51,777 nt of DNA from the sequence record MZ501069; one strand, written 5' to 3'. The stretch is from Escherichia phage FritzSarasin. This document shows positions 32,442 through 49,160 of the stretch, in pieces (within the stretch, counting starts at the first letter, position 1; each line of letters starts with the position of its first letter). The position numbers were made by a program, and so were the translations under genes. The notes below the pieces were generated by a model, which was not told the origin of the DNA, ran no database searches, and was given only the letters and a program-made list of their open reading frames with translations.

Positions 32442-33557
32442 ATGAAAAATGTAAAAATTACAGATGAGCAATTCAAGATCGAACGGGCGGCAGGTAAGAC
32501 ATATAAACAGATCGCTCAAGAGTACGGGATGAATGTGAGAAGCGTCGAGCGTCGCGCGGCGCGTCTTGCAAAGCAAGGACAGTTATCGACCATCGGAGCG
32601 CCTGGTTTTGGTGTTCATGGTGAGTCAGTAATGACTGACAAAGAAGGAAATATAATCCTCAAGTGGACCAAAACCAGCAAGGATAAAGAGCAATTAGAGG
32701 CACTGATGCGCGCAGCTATGGAGGCGTTTAGCGAGGAAGTGCCGCGATTAGATCCAGTTCCATTTCAGGAGCGTAATTATAATGAAACGCTTTCATTGTA
32801 TCCGATCTTTGACATGCACTTAGGAGCTATGGCCCATAAGCACGAATGCGGCGAAAATTGGGATACTGCGACGGCAGAGCGCGTTATGAATAACTTTATC
32901 GACTATGCTTTGATGTGCGCGCCGGACAGCGAAAAGGCTGTTATCCTGATTGGTGGCGATATGCTTCATAGCGATGGCCTGGAGGCTGTGACACCTGCAA
33001 GCGGTCACGTACTTGATCAAGATAGCCGATATGCAAAATTGGTTTACGTTGCAATCCGTGCAATGCGTCGCGCAATTAATAAAATGCTGTTAAAGCATAA
33101 ACATGTTGAGGTCCAGATCGTAGAGGGGAATCACGACCAATCAGGAATGATTTGGCTACGCGCAGCAATGGCGGCAGCATATGAGAACGAGCCGCGCGTT
33201 TACGTTGATGTTTCTCCTCGCGTTGTTCACCACACGCAATACGGAAAAACTTTCCTTGCGTACCATCACGGGCACACAGTGCGTAAACCGGAGGCTTTGC
33301 TAATGATGTGCGCGTCAGATTGGCGGGAGGACTTCGGAAACTCAAAAACGATGTATGCGCACGTAGGGCACTGGCATCACCAGACCGTGACAGAAACGTC
33401 GCTTGGCATCGTGGAGGTGCATAGCACCCTGGCGGCAAAAGACGCATACGCCGCGCGAGGTGGCTGGAGATCTCGACGCCGTGCGGCGGTTATCATTTAC
33501 GACAAAGAGCATGGAGAAGTCGGGCGATTTGTTCACTATCCAGAAATGATGAATTGA
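32442..33557 (+). CDS. calcineurin-like metallophosphoesterase with N-terminal HTH-like region
   Basis: 371 aa from ATG 32442; motifs DMHLG, GGDMLHSD, GNHD, HHGH, GHWHH match the metallophosphoesterase series (SbcD/Mre11-like); N-terminal KQIAQEYGMNVRSVERRAARL resembles an HTH. Confidence 0.6.
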   Translation: MKNVKITDEQFKIERAAGKTYKQIAQEYGMNVRSVERRAARLAKQGQLSTIGAPGFGVHGESVMTDKEGNIILKWTKTSKDKEQLEALMRAAMEAFSEEVPRLDPVPFQERNYNETLSLYPIFDMHLGAMAHKHECGENWDTATAERVMNNFIDYALMCAPDSEKAVILIGGDMLHSDGLEAVTPASGHVLDQDSRYAKLVYVAIRAMRRAINKMLLKHKHVEVQIVEGNHDQSGMIWLRAAMAAAYENEPRVYVDVSPRVVHHTQYGKTFLAYHHGHTVRKPEALLMMCASDWREDFGNSKTMYAHVGHWHHQTVTETSLGIVEVHSTLAAKDAYAARGGWRSRRRAAVIIYDKEHGEVGRFVHYPEMMN

Positions 33558-42742: not shown

Positions 42743-42770
42743 TTGACACGCACCAAATAGCTTTTATAAT
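42743..42770 (+). promoter_or_regulatory. consensus sigma70 promoter (TTGACA-N16-TATAAT)
   Basis: Perfect -35 and -10 hexamers about 30 nt upstream of ATG 42802. Confidence 0.65.
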
Positions 42771-44084: not shown

Positions 44085-44978
44085 ATGTTAAAACTTGCTG
44101 ACATTAAATTCCCGATCACCTTCGAATCTCGTGGTGTTGGTCATTACGTTTTTACCGATGAGAAAACATGCCATAACGTTTGGTTGCACAGCGATAAGTT
44201 AAGCCCATCAACAATGGAGATTCAGCACTTTATTGATGCGCATAATCAGCACTACAACTCAATCCGTGACTACGGCTACGCAATGCCAGGCTACACATGC
44301 TTGCACTACAAGCCATATAAGGGCCAGGTGTTACCAGTGCGCTCACCGGAACGTGCAGAGATTCCGATGGTCCACATGAAAACCTGCGACTACAAAAAGC
44401 TGTGGTGCTTAAGTGTGGACAATATCAAGTATCCGATCACGTTCTACACGGTTGGTAATTCAACGATTCGCTTCACATCGCGCGACAATGGCGTTTATAG
44501 CGATGGTACGAAATCAGAGTTGAAAGTTGATTTCTTTGTCAACGGTCACAACAAATTCAATCCGCACAACGAAGAGGATAAAGTGTACTACGTGGAAGAC
44601 ATTACAAAACACTTGTTTGGAGAAACTCCATTCGGCGGCGGAAAGACGTCAATTCAAAAAATCATTGGCGAGGAGATCCACAAAGCGGCTGCCGAAATGA
44701 AAGCGCCTGGAGGCTGGCGTATTGATAAGAGCGCCTTTGCAAATCAAGAAATCGTAACGCAGGGCGCGATTGAAGATATGCCAGTTGCAGCCACGCTAAA
44801 AGGAGTCCGGCTTGATGATGGTGTGTGGTTTGAAGTAACGGCCACACCAAAGACGATCGAGATTCATGATGATGTTGTTATCCTCCTGCTTCACTACGGC
44901 GGCACTAAAAATCGGACTGTTGCAGGTGAGATCAGCATCAAGCGCGGAACGATGGTTAAGTGGAAGGTGAAGATTTGA
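44085..44978 (+). CDS. hypothetical protein with internal tandem repeat
   Basis: 297 aa; N-terminal repeats IKFPITFESRGVGHYVFTDEKT and IKYPITFYTVGNSTIRFTSRDNG. Confidence 0.6.
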   Translation: MLKLADIKFPITFESRGVGHYVFTDEKTCHNVWLHSDKLSPSTMEIQHFIDAHNQHYNSIRDYGYAMPGYTCLHYKPYKGQVLPVRSPERAEIPMVHMKTCDYKKLWCLSVDNIKYPITFYTVGNSTIRFTSRDNGVYSDGTKSELKVDFFVNGHNKFNPHNEEDKVYYVEDITKHLFGETPFGGGKTSIQKIIGEEIHKAAAEMKAPGGWRIDKSAFANQEIVTQGAIEDMPVAATLKGVRLDDGVWFEVTATPKTIEIHDDVVILLLHYGGTKNRTVAGEISIKRGTMVKWKVKI

Positions 44979-45054
44979 GTTTGTTCACTGCGGCGCACGT
45001 CGCCGCATGGATCGGATTGTTTGCCTACCTGTTTAGCTTTTATTGAGGTGAGAG

Positions 45055-45207
45055 ATGGCTACCTGGATTTTGCTGATTCTTATGATTGATGGCGGCGTTG
45101 ACCATATCGAAATGAATAGCCAGCAATCTTGCATTGAGGCACGAGAACAGATCAAGAACGACAACAGGTTTTATGCGTACACTCACACGCTATGTATTAA
45201 GAAATAG
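45055..45207 (+). CDS. putative small membrane peptide (not in ORF track)
   Basis: 50-aa ORF with RBS GAGGTGAGAG; hydrophobic N-terminus; stop TAG embedded in the next motif. Confidence 0.35.
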   Translation: MATWILLILMIDGGVDHIEMNSQQSCIEAREQIKNDNRFYAYTHTLCIKK

Positions 45208-45223
45208 CACTTTTTGTTAAAAC
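45203..45223 (+). promoter_or_regulatory. conserved promoter-module motif copy (rightward)
   Basis: AATAGCACTTTTTGTTAAAAC + GGGGCCAGG TATAAT GGCC; ATG 74 nt downstream. Confidence 0.6.
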
Positions 45224-45276
45224 TCAAATGTGGGGCCAGGTATAATGGCCTCACTTTCAACGAAGGAGATAAAACG

Positions 45277-45507
45277 ATGTACATTAAAAAGAAGATGAAA
45301 TGCGTTTCCGTTAACTATGCTTGCTCTGGTATGTTCAAGCCTGGCGAAATCTATACAGCGCAAAAACTGAAATCATCAACCGGATCTTTTTACGTGAGCA
45401 ATAGTAAGGGGCATCGCATGTTCCTGAACGGCGGCGAAGGCACTAAGGTTATGGCACACGCTATGGTAATGGCTGAATTTGAGGAAGTGAAAGATGAAAA
45501 CAAATAA
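45277..45507 (+). CDS. hypothetical small protein (FKPGEIY motif)
   Basis: 76 aa from ATG 45277 (RBS AAGGAG); track start 45214 lies inside the promoter module. Confidence 0.5.
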   Translation: MYIKKKMKCVSVNYACSGMFKPGEIYTAQKLKSSTGSFYVSNSKGHRMFLNGGEGTKVMAHAMVMAEFEEVKDENK

Positions 45508-45715
45508 TCGCGTCAAGCACAGGTTTACTGATAACCACGGCGACGCGATTGATGTATACAAGTTCGGCGATCGCGTGTTTATTGATGGCACGTTTGAAGG
45601 TGGGCGCAGGCCGGATTTTAGGTCGATACTTACCGTTGACCAAGTGCGCAAGCTGGCAGATAAGTTAAATGATCTGGCAGATGAAATAGAATACAAGCAA
45701 ATCCATTTTAATTGA
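45494..45715 (+). CDS. hypothetical small protein
   Basis: 73 aa; overlaps upstream gene. Confidence 0.5.
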   Translation: MKTNNRVKHRFTDNHGDAIDVYKFGDRVFIDGTFEGGRRPDFRSILTVDQVRKLADKLNDLADEIEYKQIHFN

Positions 45716-45726
45716 TAGGTTTGATA

Positions 45727-46269
45727 ATGAAAAAATACACTTTCGAACTGTGGGGCAAAAAGTACGAATTAATCACCAGCAAGCCGATTGTTATCGTTGA
45801 CCTGGACGGCACACTATCGGACGGATCGCATCGTTTGCATTTGCTGCCAACTGAAAACTTGCACCTTACGGAATCGTGGCGCGAGTTTAACAGGGCCGCC
45901 GCCGGAGATTCACCTATTAAAAGCACTATCGCGGTTATTAACGGTTTATGGGTGTCGGGATTTGCCATCGTCATCTTGACCGGACGCAGCGACGAGGTTC
46001 GCTATGAAACCTGCAAATGGTTGAATGAGAACGGCGTGAAGTTTGACGAAATCATCATGCGCCGCCAGGAGGACAACCGAAAGGATACGGTTATCAAAGA
46101 AGAAGCCTTGCGCGCTATTGGCCTGGACAACATTGTTTGCGCCTTTGACGATTCGCCGAACGTGGTTAAGCACTTCCGCAGCCTGGCAATCACAACCTAT
46201 CAGGTCACGGAATACGACAAGCCGCACGCTCACCTGCAATCTCACGGCGTGGAGGAGTTGCAGAAATGA
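45727..46269 (+). CDS. HAD-superfamily phosphatase (nucleotidase / polynucleotide 3-phosphatase-like)
   Basis: About 180 aa; HAD motif I IVIVDLDGTLSDG, motif II ILTGR, C-terminal FDDS. Confidence 0.6.
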   Translation: MKKYTFELWGKKYELITSKPIVIVDLDGTLSDGSHRLHLLPTENLHLTESWREFNRAAAGDSPIKSTIAVINGLWVSGFAIVILTGRSDEVRYETCKWLNENGVKFDEIIMRRQEDNRKDTVIKEEALRAIGLDNIVCAFDDSPNVVKHFRSLAITTYQVTEYDKPHAHLQSHGVEELQK

Positions 46270-46475
46270 TCCTGAATGTAGCATATGCTAACCCTCGCGG
46301 CTGCAATATATACGGCTTTAAGGTTGGCGCGATGGTCAACGCCAGGATAAACGAAAAAGGCGTATTAGTTGTCAAGTCCCCTAAAACTGGCATGGATATG
46401 CGCATCAAGGAGAACGGCGGAAGATTGTTTATCAGGTCAATATCTGGTCAAACGCTCGCAACGTTCACAAAATAG
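46266..46475 (+). CDS. hypothetical small protein
   Basis: 69 aa; stop TAG embedded in the next motif copy. Confidence 0.5.
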   Translation: MILNVAYANPRGCNIYGFKVGAMVNARINEKGVLVVKSPKTGMDMRIKENGGRLFIRSISGQTLATFTK

Positions 46476-46491
46476 CACTTTTTGCAAAAAC
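46471..46491 (+). promoter_or_regulatory. conserved promoter-module motif copy (rightward)
   Basis: AATAGCACTTTTTGCAAAAAC + hairpin GGGCTTGCGGTATAGTAAGCCC. Confidence 0.6.
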
Positions 46492-46546
46492 AGATTATCG
46501 GGCTTGCGGTATAGTAAGCCCATCGACAACGAAAGAGGAAGCGGCG

Positions 46547-46846
46547 ATGTTAGTACGCAATGCGATTTATAAATTCACAAACGAGATGGGGGTTCACCTT
46601 TACCACGTAAACCATCAAGGCAACACCTCAATCGCGATGTATCGCGACGCTCGCGGGAAGTGTAGGCCTTCTCTGCGTGGCAGAATTTCTCCTGCGTTCT
46701 TCATGTTTAGATGGTATGCAACAGAACAAAGCAACCATAACCATTGGAATAAAGTATTGATTGCAGGAGGCCGAATTGTTGCCAGTCACGTAGTCGATCC
46801 TTGCAAACTAACCAGTCGCCAGCTTCGCAAAATGGCGCGCAAATAG
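46547..46846 (+). CDS. hypothetical protein
   Basis: 99 aa; flanked by near-identical modules at 46471 and 46842. Confidence 0.5.
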   Translation: MLVRNAIYKFTNEMGVHLYHVNHQGNTSIAMYRDARGKCRPSLRGRISPAFFMFRWYATEQSNHNHWNKVLIAGGRIVASHVVDPCKLTSRQLRKMARK

Positions 46847-46861
46847 CACTTTTTGTTAAAA
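46842..46861 (+). promoter_or_regulatory. conserved promoter-module motif copy (rightward)
   Basis: AATAGCACTTTTTGTTAAAA + hairpin CGGCTTGCGGTATAGTAAGCCC. Confidence 0.6.
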
Positions 46862-46917
46862 TCAACTTTACGGCTTGCGGTATAGTAAGCCCATCAACAA
46901 CAAACGAGGATTAAATC

Positions 46918-47181
46918 ATGGCTAACAAGATCGAGTTTTTTAAAGCGGTAGACATTATCGACGGCGCGCCTAGCTTCTTTGCCATCCATTCTATTGACGG
47001 CAAGGATATTGGGTACAACGTTATCCGTCGAGATGGAATCTCAAAACTTAGTGATCTGGTAGGTCATGTTGTGGCAAACGGTAAATGTGCATGGCCCGAT
47101 TCACCGCGAGAGCCACGCCGCCGCGACATGGTAGAGCCTGTTCTGCTTTACACTCTGTTAGTAGAAGGAGAAAATAAATGA
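46918..47181 (+). CDS. hypothetical protein
   Basis: 87 aa with RBS GAGGA. Confidence 0.5.
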   Translation: MANKIEFFKAVDIIDGAPSFFAIHSIDGKDIGYNVIRRDGISKLSDLVGHVVANGKCAWPDSPREPRRRDMVEPVLLYTLLVEGENK

Positions 47182-47363
47182 TTTGGTTACTTGCTTTTTT
47201 GGTTGTTTTTCTTTACATTTCAGGCTTATTCACGTTCCGCGCGTTGGTGAAATATTCTGACACGACAGACAAGGACGATAAAATCGTTCTCGCTTTCTGG
47301 TTTGTTTGGGTGTGGTTAGCAATTTACGAGATCATCAGAGACAAACAGAAATTTGAGTGGTGA
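47178..47363 (+). CDS. putative small membrane protein
   Basis: 61 aa with two hydrophobic helices. Confidence 0.45.
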   Translation: MIWLLAFLVVFLYISGLFTFRALVKYSDTTDKDDKIVLAFWFVWVWLAIYEIIRDKQKFEW

Positions 47364-47423
47364 TTCTTGCTATGGCGCATTCATGCAGTGCGCCATGTTG
47401 AGAAAACCTAAAGGGGGGGGGGA

Positions 47424-47576
47424 ATGATGCGTAACTTTGAAAAAATCATTACCAAAAAGAAGCTTCGCGGGTACGATGAGCATGTGGAGCTTGTGAAAAA
47501 GCAACGCAAGAAGCGCAACGAAGACAAGAAGCGCGGGAAAAAATTTAATGCGATTTTTCGCTATGGAGGAAACTAA
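47424..47576 (+). CDS. putative small basic protein (not in ORF track)
   Basis: 50-aa K/R-rich ORF directly after a G10 homopolymer; stop abuts next ATG. Confidence 0.3.
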   Translation: MMRNFEKIITKKKLRGYDEHVELVKKQRKKRNEDKKRGKKFNAIFRYGGN

Positions 47577-47768
47577 ATGCAATTGCCACCATTTAACGAA
47601 AAAAGCGAAGAGATTGCCAAAACTGCATGTCACCTTCGAGAGCTTGCCGACATGATAGAGCGCGGTCAGGTTATGATTGTCAATATGACTATCAAAAGCG
47701 AGAATAGAAATTTCAAGGTTTTAAGCGAGACAACAGAAATTACCGTCTTGAAAGCAAGGGGAGAGTAA
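47577..47768 (+). CDS. hypothetical small protein
   Basis: 63 aa with RBS GGAGGA. Confidence 0.45.
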   Translation: MQLPPFNEKSEEIAKTACHLRELADMIERGQVMIVNMTIKSENRNFKVLSETTEITVLKARGE

Positions 47769-47770
47769 TC

Positions 47771-48361
47771 ATGAAACGAGACATTATCATCCTTAATGGG
47801 CCTCCAGGTTGCGGGAAGGACACTATTGCAGCTTACCTAACGGGCCATCGTTACCCAGCGGTTAAGGCATCGTTCAAGCAACCTATGTTCGACATTGCTT
47901 TTTCTATGCTTGGCCCGACTCGATACGATGAATTTATGGATCTGTACAACGACCGAGAGCAAAAAGAAAAGCCTCAAGTTATCTTAGGCGGCAAGTCACC
48001 TCGACAATTCATGATCTGGATTAGCGAGGATGTAATGAAGCCAGTTTTTGGGGATCACTATTTCGGGCGTCGAATGGTTGAAGAGATTCACGAGATGTAC
48101 CGAGATTTGGCGGTTGTGATCAGTGATGGCGGATTCCCCGAAGAAATCAAGCCGCTTGTTAAGGAAGGGCATGAAGTGCATATTTGCCGATTGCATCGCG
48201 ACGGCTTCACGTTTGCTGGCGATTCGAGAGACTACATTGACCTGAGCGGTTATCACTATCGAATCCATCACTATGACTTCCAATTGCAGGACGGCAAGCC
48301 GGAAATGGCTGTAAACGAGATCGTCAATACGGTCAAATGGAAGCACACACAGATTAAATAG
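47771..48361 (+). CDS. P-loop kinase, dNMP-kinase-like
   Basis: 196 aa; N-terminal P-loop ILNGPPGCGKDT; later VISDGG and HICRLHR blocks resemble phage dNMP kinases (from memory). Confidence 0.55.
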   Translation: MKRDIIILNGPPGCGKDTIAAYLTGHRYPAVKASFKQPMFDIAFSMLGPTRYDEFMDLYNDREQKEKPQVILGGKSPRQFMIWISEDVMKPVFGDHYFGRRMVEEIHEMYRDLAVVISDGGFPEEIKPLVKEGHEVHICRLHRDGFTFAGDSRDYIDLSGYHYRIHHYDFQLQDGKPEMAVNEIVNTVKWKHTQIK

Positions 48362-48376
48362 CACGAATTGCTAAAC
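48357..48376 (+). promoter_or_regulatory. conserved promoter-module motif, variant copy (rightward)
   Basis: AATAGCACGAATTGCTAAAC + hairpin GCGGGGTTATCTGCCCCGC + TATAAT; ATG 75 nt downstream. Confidence 0.55.
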
Positions 48377-48431
48377 GCGGGGTTATCTGCCCCGCTATAA
48401 TGCGCACATCAACAAGCAAGAGGAAATTACA

Positions 48432-48812
48432 ATGGTTAACATCCGAAAAATCCGCGTCGGCACTAAATTCTTAGTTACTTATGCAATTCCCGATAGCGGA
48501 ATGAAGAAGGGCCAGATTGTTAAGGTTGATAGCAAAAGGTTCGGAATCCCTGGTATCAATGGCTATCTAATCAATAAAGATCTTGGATTCGACGGCTTCG
48601 CTATCCGTGCGCTTGAGGGTATTGTTGCCACTCTTAAGCGAATCACTAATCATCGCGGTTGTCCAATCAAGACGATTAAAGCGCCAATAAATTACGGCAA
48701 ACTGGATAATCGTCGAATCCGCCGCCTGGCGCGTAACGCGTTAAAATTCCGTGGCGTAGGCGATGATTTCTACTATGGATACAAGAGGATTGCGCGCAAT
48801 GCTGGGAAATAA
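48432..48812 (+). CDS. hypothetical protein
   Basis: 126 aa; basic. Confidence 0.55.
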   Translation: MVNIRKIRVGTKFLVTYAIPDSGMKKGQIVKVDSKRFGIPGINGYLINKDLGFDGFAIRALEGIVATLKRITNHRGCPIKTIKAPINYGKLDNRRIRRLARNALKFRGVGDDFYYGYKRIARNAGK

Positions 48813-48911
48813 CAATAACGCAACGAATCCTAAGCCACCTTTTGATTTTCATTCCGCAATGATTGCGGTATTATCAATGCTACTTTTTCTTTATAGCATG
48901 AGGGCGCTACT

Positions 48912-49160
48912 ATGGTTTTTAACGCATTGAAACGACTGTTTAAGCCGGAATACCGGATCGTATTTTGCCGCGACTGTTCTACTTATCATGTGCAGCGACG
49001 CAGCTTAGGCGGCAATTGGCACTATGTTACAGACGACTTTTTCGGCATCATTGCCACTGAATTTAAGTATTACAGTGATGCTTATATGTACGTCAAGAAT
49101 CGCCACCGCTTACGCAAGTGTCGTTTTTCCGTGCTGATTCACGTTAATGATTGTTACTGA
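48912..49160 (+). CDS. hypothetical protein
   Basis: 82 aa ORF. Confidence 0.45.
   Translation: MVFNALKRLFKPEYRIVFCRDCSTYHVQRRSLGGNWHYVTDDFFGIIATEFKYYSDAYMYVKNRHRLRKCRFSVLIHVNDCY

What the first reader, a model, noticed from the sequence alone, without database searches (positions are those of the whole stretch)
45727..48361. HAD phosphatase and dNMP-kinase-like P-loop kinase in the early region
A HAD-family phosphatase (DLDGTL motif, 45727-46269) and a P-loop kinase (GPPGCGKDT, 47771-48361) sit 1.5 kb apart among small early genes. Together they could recycle nucleotides, or act as a split polynucleotide kinase-phosphatase that repairs tRNA cut by host anticodon nucleases. The sequence alone does not separate these.
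Basis: partly seen in the sequence, partly recalled or inferred. Interest (0 to 1): 0.45.

Follow-up and report, generated by a model that had tools for sequence, protein, structure and literature searches.

The report
Phage dNMP kinase plus Pnkp-type phosphatase
Both genes are real, but they look like the two scattered halves of a widespread phage deoxynucleotide-salvage cassette (a tested type of dNMP kinase plus an untested phosphatase), not a split tRNA-repair enzyme.

Summary
The window is a T1-like coliphage (Drexlerviridae, Tempevirinae). Both ORFs exist as described.

**Kinase (47771-48361).** It is a phage dNMP kinase (DNK).
- It is 46% identical to Rao1 DNK, which was shown in vitro to phosphorylate dAMP, dGMP, dCMP and dTMP.
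- It is 81% identical to the KarlJaspers DNK, which triggers the Kongming defence.
- It resembles the T4 Pnkp kinase domain only in the P-loop.

**HAD (45727-46269).** It is a standalone Pnkp-type phosphatase with all ten T4 Pnkp phosphatase residues conserved. It has no kinase domain, so the common "polynucleotide kinase" label is wrong.

**Linkage.**
- In 70 of 80 sampled viral contigs the order is HAD→kinase on one strand.
- The genes abut in several phage families and are fused in metagenomic proteins.
- A metallophosphoesterase "DNA repair exonuclease" usually precedes them; in this window it lies at 32442-33557.
- Where the kinase is absent, the HAD sits beside other free-nucleotide enzymes.
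- The genome has no ligase and no tRNA genes.

**Verdict.** The nucleotide-recycling reading is supported and the split-PNKP tRNA-repair reading is not. The HAD's substrate (3'-phosphate or 5'-dNMP) is unresolved. This is mostly known biology, of modest interest.

The parts
45727..46269 (+). Standalone Pnkp-type HAD phosphatase (180 aa). It has no kinase domain although relatives are labelled 'polynucleotide kinase'.
45799..45813 (+). HAD motif I, D25-L-D27-G-T29 (nucleophile and general acid/base Asp)
   Evidence: Aligns with T4 Pnkp D165-V-D167-G-T169 and is invariant in the family.
45817..45906 (+). Conserved insert after motif I (residues 31-60: SDGSHRLHLLPTENLHLTESWREFNRAAAG). It contains the essential Arg36 and sits at the cap position, so it probably determines substrate access.
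   Evidence: Many invariant residues. Absent from T4 Pnkp, present in the fusion proteins. Aligns weakly with T5 Dmp. Low pLDDT at residues 40-58.
46266..47768 (+). Six small ORFs of unknown function lying between the two genes. They interrupt a pair that abuts in other phage families.
   Evidence: The same layout occurs in MikeNSara and KarlJaspers. The HAD-kinase gap ranges from 0 to 2159 nt across 70 loci.
47771..48361 (+). Phage deoxynucleoside monophosphate kinase (DNK, 196 aa)
47798..47824 (+). P-loop G10-PPGCGKD-T18, with Asp after the Lys (GKDT)
   Evidence: Invariant G15 K16 D17 T18. The same GKDT occurs in T4 gp1 and in T5, Rao1, VAC2 and XZ1 DNKs. T4 Pnkp has GKST.
32442..33557 (+). 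Metallophosphoesterase ('DNA repair exonuclease'), the third member of the cassette. Here it is separated from the other two by about 12 kb and sits just upstream of the lysis genes.
   Evidence: phrog_704 at 1e-148. Homologous to RP180, Webervirus, Rao1, megetsur and L099 cassette members. Motifs DMH, GGDM, GNHD, HHGH and GHWH are readable in the translation.
42743..42770 (+). Perfect-consensus sigma-70 promoter-like site (TTGACA-16-TATAAT) at the head of the + strand block that contains both genes
   Evidence: 12 of 12 matches. The total count of promoter-like sites in the region does not exceed the shuffles, so only this one site is notable. Function is not shown.

Best explanation
The two genes are dispersed members of a conserved phage cassette for handling deoxynucleotides released when DNA is broken down.

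The usual cassette order is metallophosphoesterase nuclease, then Pnkp-type HAD phosphatase, then dNMP kinase.

The kinase converts 5'-dNMPs to dNDPs with ATP. Host Ndk then makes dNTPs for rapid phage replication. This step is shown for close homologues and inferred here.

The HAD uses the Asp25 nucleophile chemistry of the T4 Pnkp phosphatase to remove a phosphomonoester from a deoxynucleotide substrate. The most likely substrates are 3'-phosphates on DNA ends, 3'-dNMPs or 3',5'-bisphosphates. Its product would be a usable 5'-dNMP or an exonuclease-accessible 3'-OH end, which feeds the kinase. This step is inferred.

The pair does not repair tRNA.
For: **Kinase**
- It has the GKDT P-loop shared with T4 gp1.
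- It is 46% identical (E 2e-57) to Rao1 DNK. That enzyme phosphorylates dAMP, dGMP, dCMP and dTMP in vitro, and its deletion lowers dATP.
- It is 81% identical to the KarlJaspers DNK and 43% to a Webervirus DNK. The KarlJaspers DNK and the DNK of the Webervirus phage VAC2 trigger Kongming.
- Paired and unpaired kinases share every family-invariant residue.

**HAD**
- It passes PF25109. Its best fold matches are the Pnkp1 and T4 Pnkp phosphatase domains.
- All ten catalytic or essential T4 residues are conserved.

**Linkage**
- 70 of 80 IMG/VR loci have HAD→kinase on the same strand.
- The genes have overlapping stop and start codons in Webervirus and Aerosvirus and abut in Kagunavirus.
- P0259 and P0265 are HAD::kinase fusions. 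P0259 was confirmed on a 60.8-kb phage contig next to the metallophosphoesterase.
- The metallophosphoesterase lies directly upstream in 26 loci.
- Rao1 itself has gp56 (metallophosphoesterase), gp57 (HAD), gp58 (DNK).

**Context**
- Neighbours are exonuclease and endonuclease genes.
- Where the kinase is absent, the HAD is followed by a dATP/dGTP diphosphohydrolase-domain protein or overlaps nrdB.
- Unpaired kinases sit beside dUTPase, ThyX and RNR genes.
Against: - No member of this HAD subfamily has been assayed, so its substrate is a guess.
- T5 Dmp, a proven 5'-dNMP nucleotidase, shares the same catalytic motifs, including the +11 Arg. It even resembles the window HAD in the insert after motif I. 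Residue conservation therefore cannot establish 3' specificity.
- No source of 3'-phosphorylated deoxynucleotides during T1-like infection is known to me.
- Deleting dnk in Rao1 had no measurable fitness cost, so 'salvage' may not be the selected function.
- The 80 sampled loci are phylogenetically clustered, so 70 of 80 overstates the number of independent observations.
- In this window the three genes are dispersed, so tight co-translation is not required.
Confidence: 0.6

Rival explanations
1. The HAD is a Dmp-like 5'-deoxyribonucleotidase rather than a 3'-phosphatase. It is tied to the kinase to control the dNMP pool or to sanitise it (for example by removing dIMP or dUMP). In doing so it blunts defences such as Kongming, which turn the phage kinase's products into an alarm signal.
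For: - T5 and VPG01 Dmp share motif I, the +11 Arg, T-x-R, and the K and DD motifs with the window HAD. They also have an insert of similar length with an NLxL motif that T4 Pnkp lacks.
- The Kongming authors report that Dmp homologues frequently co-exist with DNKs and that Dmps neutralise Kongming.
- In PVP-SE1 the kinase is followed by a different HAD (phrog_420) with a weak NT5C hit.
- A conserved cap-like insert suggests a small-molecule substrate.
Against: - The family profile scores T4 Pnkp at 31 bits but the Dmps at only 8-10 bits. The hhalign probability is 26% for T5 Dmp against 96% for T4 Pnkp.
- Rao1 carries this HAD (gp57) next to its DNK yet is sensitive to Kongming, and is rescued only by T5 Dmp supplied in trans. 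This argument is weakened because Bas26 also stays sensitive despite having a functional Dmp.
- Fusing a 5'-nucleotidase to a kinase for the same dNMP would make a futile cycle.
Confidence: 0.2
2. DNA end-cleaning for repair or recombination. The HAD removes 3'-phosphates from broken phage DNA and works with the metallophosphoesterase 'DNA repair exonuclease', so that host polymerase and LigA can finish the job. The kinase is merely a neighbour in the replication and nucleotide module.
For: - The HAD core is most like the T4 Pnkp and Pnkp1 end-healing phosphatases.
- The metallophosphoesterase (phrog_704) is the most constant upstream partner.
- In some phages the kinase abuts an ATP-dependent DNA ligase.
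Against: - This reading does not explain the strict HAD→kinase order, the overlapping or abutting reading frames, or the HAD::kinase fusion proteins.
- It does not explain the replacement of the kinase by a dNTP diphosphohydrolase-domain protein, or the coupling to nrdB.
- This phage has no ligase.
Confidence: 0.12
3. One reading: the two proteins together form a split polynucleotide kinase-phosphatase that heals tRNA ends cut by host anticodon nucleases.
For: - The HAD belongs to the Pnkp phosphatase family, and its best structural matches come from RNA-repair enzymes.
- The kinase-phosphatase pairing and the fusions formally mimic the Pnkp domain content, in reversed order.
- Nobody has tested DNK-family kinases on 5'-OH polynucleotides.
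Against: - The kinase family has demonstrated dNMP kinase activity.
- The genome has no RNA ligase, DNA ligase or tRNA gene.
- The neighbours are DNA nucleases and nucleotide enzymes, never RNA ligases, in the T1-like, Jersey-like and podophage loci I examined.
- The T4-like phage FL37 keeps a second HAD_PNKP match elsewhere in its genome (presumably its full Pnkp) as well as this standalone HAD.
Confidence: 0.04

Closest known systems
Phage deoxynucleoside monophosphate kinases (DNK): Rao1 gp58 (R1DNK), KarlJaspers/Bas06 and Klebsiella VAC2 DNKs, and more distantly T4 gp1 and T5 Dnk
   Same: The window kinase shares the GKDT P-loop and all family-invariant residues with R1DNK, KarlJaspers and VAC2. 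Its fold is closest to T4 gp1, and both fall in PHROG 139.
   Different: Compared with T4 gp1 it lacks the ~40-residue insertion and the Arg of the 'DTR' motif (it has DGGF instead). It has its own invariant K36, K65, S85-E86, K90 and R153. Sequence similarity to gp1 is marginal (hhalign E 1.9e-5 over 73 columns). The window protein itself has not been assayed.
T4 polynucleotide kinase-phosphatase (PseT/Pnkp) and Capnocytophaga Pnkp1
   Same: The HAD domain has the same Pfam family, the same fold and the same ten catalytic or essential residues as the Pnkp 3'-phosphatase domain.
   Different: There is no fused Pnkp-type kinase domain. A conserved ~14-residue insert follows motif I. The partner kinase is a gp1-type dNMP kinase encoded downstream, so the order is reversed. 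There is no RNA ligase partner.
T5 Dmp (deoxyribonucleotide 5'-monophosphatase), an anti-Kongming factor
   Same: It is a phage HAD phosphatase with the same motif I, +11 Arg, T-x-R, and K and DD motifs, and an insert of similar length. It co-occurs with a phage DNK.
   Different: Similarity is only weak (8-10 bits; hhalign probability 26%) and Dmp has a long C-terminal extension. Rao1's copy of the window-type HAD does not protect it from Kongming.
The 'DNA repair exonuclease - PNK - dNMP kinase' arrangement noted in Drexlerviridae (KanT1 paper, PMC13164509)
   Same: These are the same three gene families. That paper also guesses that they extend the replication module to enhance nucleotide supply.
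   Different: In this window the three genes are dispersed: the metallophosphoesterase is at 32.4 kb, the HAD at 45.7 kb and the kinase at 47.8 kb. In the passages I read, that paper did not report the cross-family conservation, the fusions, or the kinase-less variants found here.

Membership tests
Phage dNMP kinase (DNK; PHROG 139; T4 gp1 / T5 Dnk / Rao1 DNK) | P-loop with Asp after the Lys (G-x-x-x-x-G-K-D-T) | tested here: met
   GPPGCGKDT. G15 K16 D17 T18 are invariant in the family. T4 gp1 has GVKRSGKDT. T5, Rao1, VAC2 and XZ1 DNKs all have GKDT.
Phage dNMP kinase (DNK; PHROG 139; T4 gp1 / T5 Dnk / Rao1 DNK) | Significant full-length similarity to an experimentally characterised member | tested here: met
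   46% identity at E 2e-57 to R1DNK. 81% to the KarlJaspers DNK QXV82329.1. The family profile scores R1DNK at 235 bits.
Phage dNMP kinase (DNK; PHROG 139; T4 gp1 / T5 Dnk / Rao1 DNK) | Fold of T4 gp1 (1DEK) | tested here: met
Phage dNMP kinase (DNK; PHROG 139; T4 gp1 / T5 Dnk / Rao1 DNK) | ATP-dependent dNMP to dNDP activity | not testable with these tools
   Shown for R1DNK in 10.1101/2024.12.20.629578. Inferred for the window protein.
T4-type polynucleotide 5'-kinase domain | Similarity beyond the P-loop, and a catalytic Asp-x-x-Arg (T4 D35/R38) after strand 2 | tested here: not met
Pnkp-type HAD phosphatase (Pfam PF25109 HAD_PNKP) | Score above the Pfam gathering threshold | tested here: met
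   73.3 bits against a cut-off of 27.6, E 2.8e-20.
Pnkp-type HAD phosphatase (Pfam PF25109 HAD_PNKP) | Catalytic and essential residues of the T4 Pnkp phosphatase (D165, D167, T169, R176, S211, R213, D254, K258, D277, D278) | tested here: met
   They correspond to D25, D27, T29, R36, T85, R87, D120, K124, D141 and D142.
Pnkp-type HAD phosphatase (Pfam PF25109 HAD_PNKP) | 3'-phosphomonoesterase specificity | not testable with these tools
   The same residues occur in the 5'-nucleotidase T5 Dmp, so sequence does not decide this.
Bifunctional Pnkp / RNA repair system (Pnkp + RNA ligase) | Kinase and phosphatase domains on one polypeptide, with an RNA ligase partner in the genome | tested here: not met
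   The HAD is a standalone 180-aa protein. No ligase was found by tblastn or in the annotated relative. There are no tRNA genes.
T5 Dmp-type 5'-deoxyribonucleotidase | Significant similarity to T5 or VPG01 Dmp | tested here: inconclusive
   8-10 bits with the family profile. BLASTP gives 3.6e-4 to VPG01 Dmp. hhalign gives E 7e-4 at probability 26%, over motif I plus the insert only.

The most novel reading that the evidence does not exclude
The conserved metallophosphoesterase - HAD - DNK cassette, with HAD and DNK fused in some phages, may be a dedicated and undescribed three-enzyme pathway. In this reading the Pnkp-type HAD is functionally coupled to the dNMP kinase in one of two ways. Either it converts 3'-phosphorylated breakdown products into 5'-dNMPs for the kinase, or it acts as a built-in safeguard that removes particular dNMPs so that the kinase does not set off nucleotide-sensing defences such as Kongming. 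In both versions, a protein annotated as 'polynucleotide kinase' in many phage records (the family as a whole was found in 2,862) would have a different and untested job.
Probability: 0.3. Interest if true: 0.55.

Novelty: new member of a known kind. Interest (0 to 1): 0.3.

Why it matters
Practical value:
- The HAD is mislabelled "polynucleotide kinase" or "5'-kinase/3'-phosphatase" in many phage genomes, although it has no kinase domain.
- The real kinase next to it is often labelled only "ATP-binding protein" or "hypothetical".

Biological value:
- The kinase family is now known to be the trigger of the Kongming defence. This phage is therefore predicted to be sensed by Kongming.
- The tightly linked, sometimes fused, and still unassayed HAD is an obvious candidate for modulating that liability or for feeding the kinase.

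If the HAD turns out to be a plain 3'-phosphatase in salvage, this is routine phage nucleotide metabolism.

Tried and rejected
- **Sequence searches of the kinase against PDB chains.** The single protein and the family profile gave only P-loop-level hits. The link to T4 gp1 needed the fold search and hhalign.
- **Pfam on the kinase.** Only generic AAA and P-loop hits, all below threshold.
- **A suspected N-terminal extension or frameshift in the HAD.** Relatives of 236-264 aa turned out to carry variable C-terminal tails instead.
- **The retron Eco2 paper.** It mentions PNK only as a laboratory reagent, and it reports no defence against the Drexlerviridae representatives tested.
- **Other long kinase-family proteins.** Their extensions are not HAD-like and have no Pfam match.
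- **Megetsur's 'phosphodiesterase' after the HAD.** I suspected a divergent kinase or an RNA 2H-phosphoesterase. It is a dATP/dGTP diphosphohydrolase-domain protein.
- **Kongming sensitivity of T1-like BASEL phages.** I tried to read it from the supplement, but it exists only as a figure image.
- **Using Rao1's sensitivity to exclude a 5'-nucleotidase role.** I kept it only as weak evidence, because Bas26 is sensitive despite having a functional Dmp.
Full report
**What the window is**

A megablast of 45000-49000 finds 136 phage records. The best are 94-97% identical T1-like coliphages such as vB_Eco_Sip, MikeNSara, tonnikala and SECphi27. MikeNSara is classified as Drexlerviridae, Tempevirinae, Warwickvirus. 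Relatives annotate the two genes inconsistently. The HAD appears as "polynucleotide kinase", "3'-phosphatase, 5'-polynucleotide kinase" or "kinase-phosphatase". The kinase appears as "dNMP kinase", "ATP-binding protein", "P-loop NTPase" or "hypothetical protein".

**Observation check**

Both ORFs are present exactly as described.
- The HAD is at 45727-46269 (+) and encodes 180 aa with DLDGTL at residues 25-30.
- The kinase is at 47771-48361 (+) and encodes 196 aa with GPPGCGKDT at residues 10-18.
- The gap is 1,501 nt and holds six small ORFs. None has a known function in PHROGs.
- Both genes lie in a + strand block of small ORFs that starts just after a perfect-consensus sigma-70 promoter-like site at 42743-42770. 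This fits early transcription but does not prove it.

**The HAD protein**

- It passes Pfam PF25109 (HAD_PNKP, the phosphatase domain of polynucleotide kinase-phosphatase) at 73 bits against a cut-off of 27.6. It matches phrog_415 at 5e-65.
- A family profile hits only three distinct PDB sequences: Capnocytophaga Pnkp1 (4xrp, 4.5e-14), the isolated T4 Pnkp phosphatase domain (5uj0, 1.9e-7) and full-length T4 Pnkp (1ltq, 1.5e-6). In every case only the phosphatase domain aligns.
- Aligned with T4 Pnkp taken from the T4 genome, all ten catalytic or essential phosphatase residues are conserved. D165, D167, T169, R176, S211, R213, D254, K258, D277 and D278 correspond to D25, D27, T29, R36, T85, R87, D120, K124, D141 and D142.
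- The protein has no kinase domain, so "polynucleotide kinase" is a misnomer carried over from the bifunctional T4 enzyme.
- It differs from T4 by a strongly conserved insert after motif I (HRLHLLPTENLHLTESWREFN). This is the position where HAD enzymes carry their cap.

**The kinase**

- Sequence searches against Pfam and the PDB find only the P-loop.
- The model is confident (pLDDT 93).
- T4 gp1, read from the T4 genome, has the same unusual P-loop with Asp after the Lys (GVKRSGKDT). T4 Pnkp has GSGKST.
- hhalign links the family to gp1 at E 1.9e-5 over the N-terminal 73 columns. T4 gp1 also falls in PHROG 139.
- The family profile aligns only residues 1-26 of the T4 Pnkp kinase domain. The position of T4's catalytic D35-x-x-R38 is occupied by an invariant S-F-K-x-P-M-F.

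**Experimental anchor**

The Kongming study (bioRxiv 10.1101/2024.12.20.629578) showed that phage dNMP kinases trigger the KomABC defence.
- Rao1 gp58 (R1DNK) phosphorylates dAMP, dGMP, dCMP and dTMP in vitro.
- Its K15A mutant no longer triggers Kongming toxicity.
- Deleting the gene lowers dATP but has no fitness cost in their conditions.
- The DNKs of KarlJaspers (Bas06), Klebsiella vB_KpnS-VAC2, T5 and Vibrio XZ1 also trigger the system.

The supplement gives the protein sequences.
- The window kinase is 46% identical to R1DNK (E 2e-57).
- It is 81% identical to the KarlJaspers protein, which is the very protein the authors tested (QXV82329.1).
- It is 43% identical to a Webervirus homologue.
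- The family profile scores R1DNK at 235 bits and VAC2 at 224 bits. T5 DNK, XZ1 DNK and T4 gp1 score 9-20 bits.

The window kinase is therefore a member of a biochemically characterised dNMP kinase family. The family is large, with 4,398 representatives at 50% clustering and homologues in 1,459 phage records.

**The two genes are linked**

- In 80 IMG/VR loci fetched around kinase homologues, 70 carry the Pnkp-type HAD upstream on the same strand. The order is always HAD→kinase, with gaps of 0 to 2,159 nt.
- The genes have overlapping stop and start codons in Klebsiella Webervirus and in the Aeromonas podophage ZPAH7B, and they abut in Kagunavirus RP180.
- Two metagenomic proteins, P0259 (403 aa) and P0265 (461 aa), are HAD::kinase fusions of exactly these two subfamilies. 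P0259 is a real gene on a 60.8-kb phage-like contig.
- A third partner recurs: a metallophosphoesterase annotated "DNA repair exonuclease" (phrog_704).
  - It lies directly upstream in RP180, Webervirus and Rao1 (gp56-gp57-gp58), and one small ORF upstream of the HAD in megetsur. ZPAH7B has a Pfam Metallophos protein in the same upstream position.
  - It also lies directly upstream in 26 of the 80 sampled loci.
  - It sits just downstream of the P0259 fusion.
- In this window the metallophosphoesterase is at about 32442-33557 and has intact metallophosphoesterase motifs. The cassette is therefore scattered here.
- The KanT1 paper (PMC13164509) already noted "PNK" and "dNMP kinase" after the DNA repair exonuclease in some Drexlerviridae, and guessed at nucleotide supply.

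**What the context says**

- Around the cassette in podophages are an exonuclease and an endonuclease.
- Where the HAD lacks the kinase, the next gene encodes a dATP/dGTP diphosphohydrolase-domain protein (PF18909, E about 1e-33) in megetsur and KP-Rio/2015.
- In the T4-like Krischvirus FL37, a standalone HAD overlaps the stop codon of nrdB. That genome has a second HAD_PNKP match elsewhere, presumably its full Pnkp.
- Unpaired kinases sit next to dUTPase and DNA ligase (EcoM1), ThyX and RNR (PVP-SE1), or an exonuclease (Kuravirus).
- In PVP-SE1 the kinase is followed by a different HAD-like protein (phrog_420, with a weak NT5C hit).
- Paired and unpaired kinases share every invariant residue, which argues for one activity across both contexts.
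- The window has no tRNA genes. It has no detectable RNA or DNA ligase, and none is annotated in its close relative.

Together this favours deoxynucleotide metabolism and argues against tRNA end-healing.

**What stays open**

The HAD's substrate is unknown. T5 Dmp, a proven 5'-dNMP nucleotidase and anti-Kongming factor, has the same motif I, the same Arg at +11, and T-x-R, K and DD motifs. It also has an insert of similar length. The conserved "Pnkp" residues therefore bind the scissile phosphate and do not specify 3' or 5'.

Quantitatively the window family is much closer to T4 Pnkp than to the Dmps.
- T4 Pnkp scores 31 bits. hhalign gives 96% probability and E 3e-9 over motifs II-IV.
- The Dmps score 8-10 bits. 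hhalign gives 26% probability and E 7e-4 over motif I plus the insert.

Rao1 carries this HAD beside its DNK and is still sensitive to Kongming unless T5 Dmp is supplied in trans. This mildly argues against an efficient 5'-dAMP nucleotidase. However, Bas26 is also sensitive despite having a functional Dmp, so the argument is weak.

**Best model**

My best model places the enzymes in the usual order of their genes: nuclease, then phosphatase, then kinase.
- The HAD removes 3'-phosphates from DNA ends, 3'-dNMPs or pdNp.
- This yields substrates that end up as 5'-dNMPs for the kinase.
- This step is inferred, not shown.

I rate the kinase assignment at about 0.9 and the overall model at 0.6.

**Verdict**

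- The nucleotide-recycling interpretation is supported.
- The split-PNKP tRNA-repair interpretation is not supported.

Both genes belong to known families. One of those families has been experimentally characterised in near relatives. The arrangement has been partly noted in the literature. The remaining novelty is the unassayed HAD and its tight coupling to the kinase, which reaches fusion in some phages. Interest is modest.

Noticed in passing
Relatives of window 45727-46269: P0121-P0154, P0224: Many close HAD homologues are 206-264 aa because they carry variable C-terminal tails. One tail is Cys-rich (…IECEGEHCFSVVDGKCLRCG…). Another is a ~57-aa tail (…SIKITKRARFVGSKDSLVNASF…). The window copy stops at …HGVEELQK.
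   Followed up: partly
Kinase homologues P0056, P0103, P0111, P0113, P0117 (alignment A1, columns 201-229): A subset of the kinase family ends in an acidic tail …(W)ADD-IPW. This resembles the C-terminal tip of bacterial SSB (…DDDIPF, from my own knowledge), which recruits replication and repair proteins. It may dock the kinase to a replisome partner. The window copy lacks this tail.
   Followed up: no
window 42743-42770 (+): A perfect sigma-70 consensus (TTGACA, 16 nt, TATAAT) lies immediately upstream of the first ORF of the rightward block of small genes (42769 onward). It is probably a strong early promoter.
   Followed up: no
window 32442-33557 (+): The metallophosphoesterase 'DNA repair exonuclease' has an N-terminal ~50-residue region with weak helix-turn-helix or sigma-70 region 4 hits. 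This is unexpected for an SbcD/Mre11-type nuclease.
   Followed up: no
L098 4012-4590 (megetsur) and L097 3983-4297 (KP-Rio/2015): In these podophages the slot after the HAD is filled by a PF18909 dATP/dGTP diphosphohydrolase N-terminal-domain protein instead of the kinase. The annotations there ('putative phosphodiestherase' as spelled in the record, 'hypothetical protein') miss this.
   Followed up: partly
L096 3498-3974 (Escherichia phage FL37, Krischvirus): A T4-like phage carries a standalone copy of this HAD subfamily (46.5% identical). It overlaps the stop codon of nrdB. The genome has a second HAD_PNKP match elsewhere, presumably its full Pnkp.
   Followed up: partly
GenBank MG0656xx 'Campylobacter phage' records (for example H24 and H141-H145): About 20 records named Campylobacter phage (host C. 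jejuni) carry T1-like coliphage sequence that is 83-99% identical to these genes. They are probably contaminating coliphages or mislabelled records.
   Followed up: no
window 44085-44978 (+): A 297-aa ORF of unknown function (phrog_7116) matches its profile in two stretches. It shows an internal repeat (…IKFPITFESRGVGHYVF… and …IKYPITFYTVGNSTIRF…). It is conserved just upstream of the HAD in relatives, including KarlJaspers.
   Followed up: no
L043 9998-11523 and L005 2250-3624: In a ~44.5-kb podophage contig the kinase abuts an ATP-dependent DNA ligase (kinase→ligase). In Chaseviridae EcoM1 the order is ligase→kinase→dUTPase. This may be ordinary clustering of DNA-metabolism genes, but it is the one context that would suit a nick-healing role.
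   Followed up: partly
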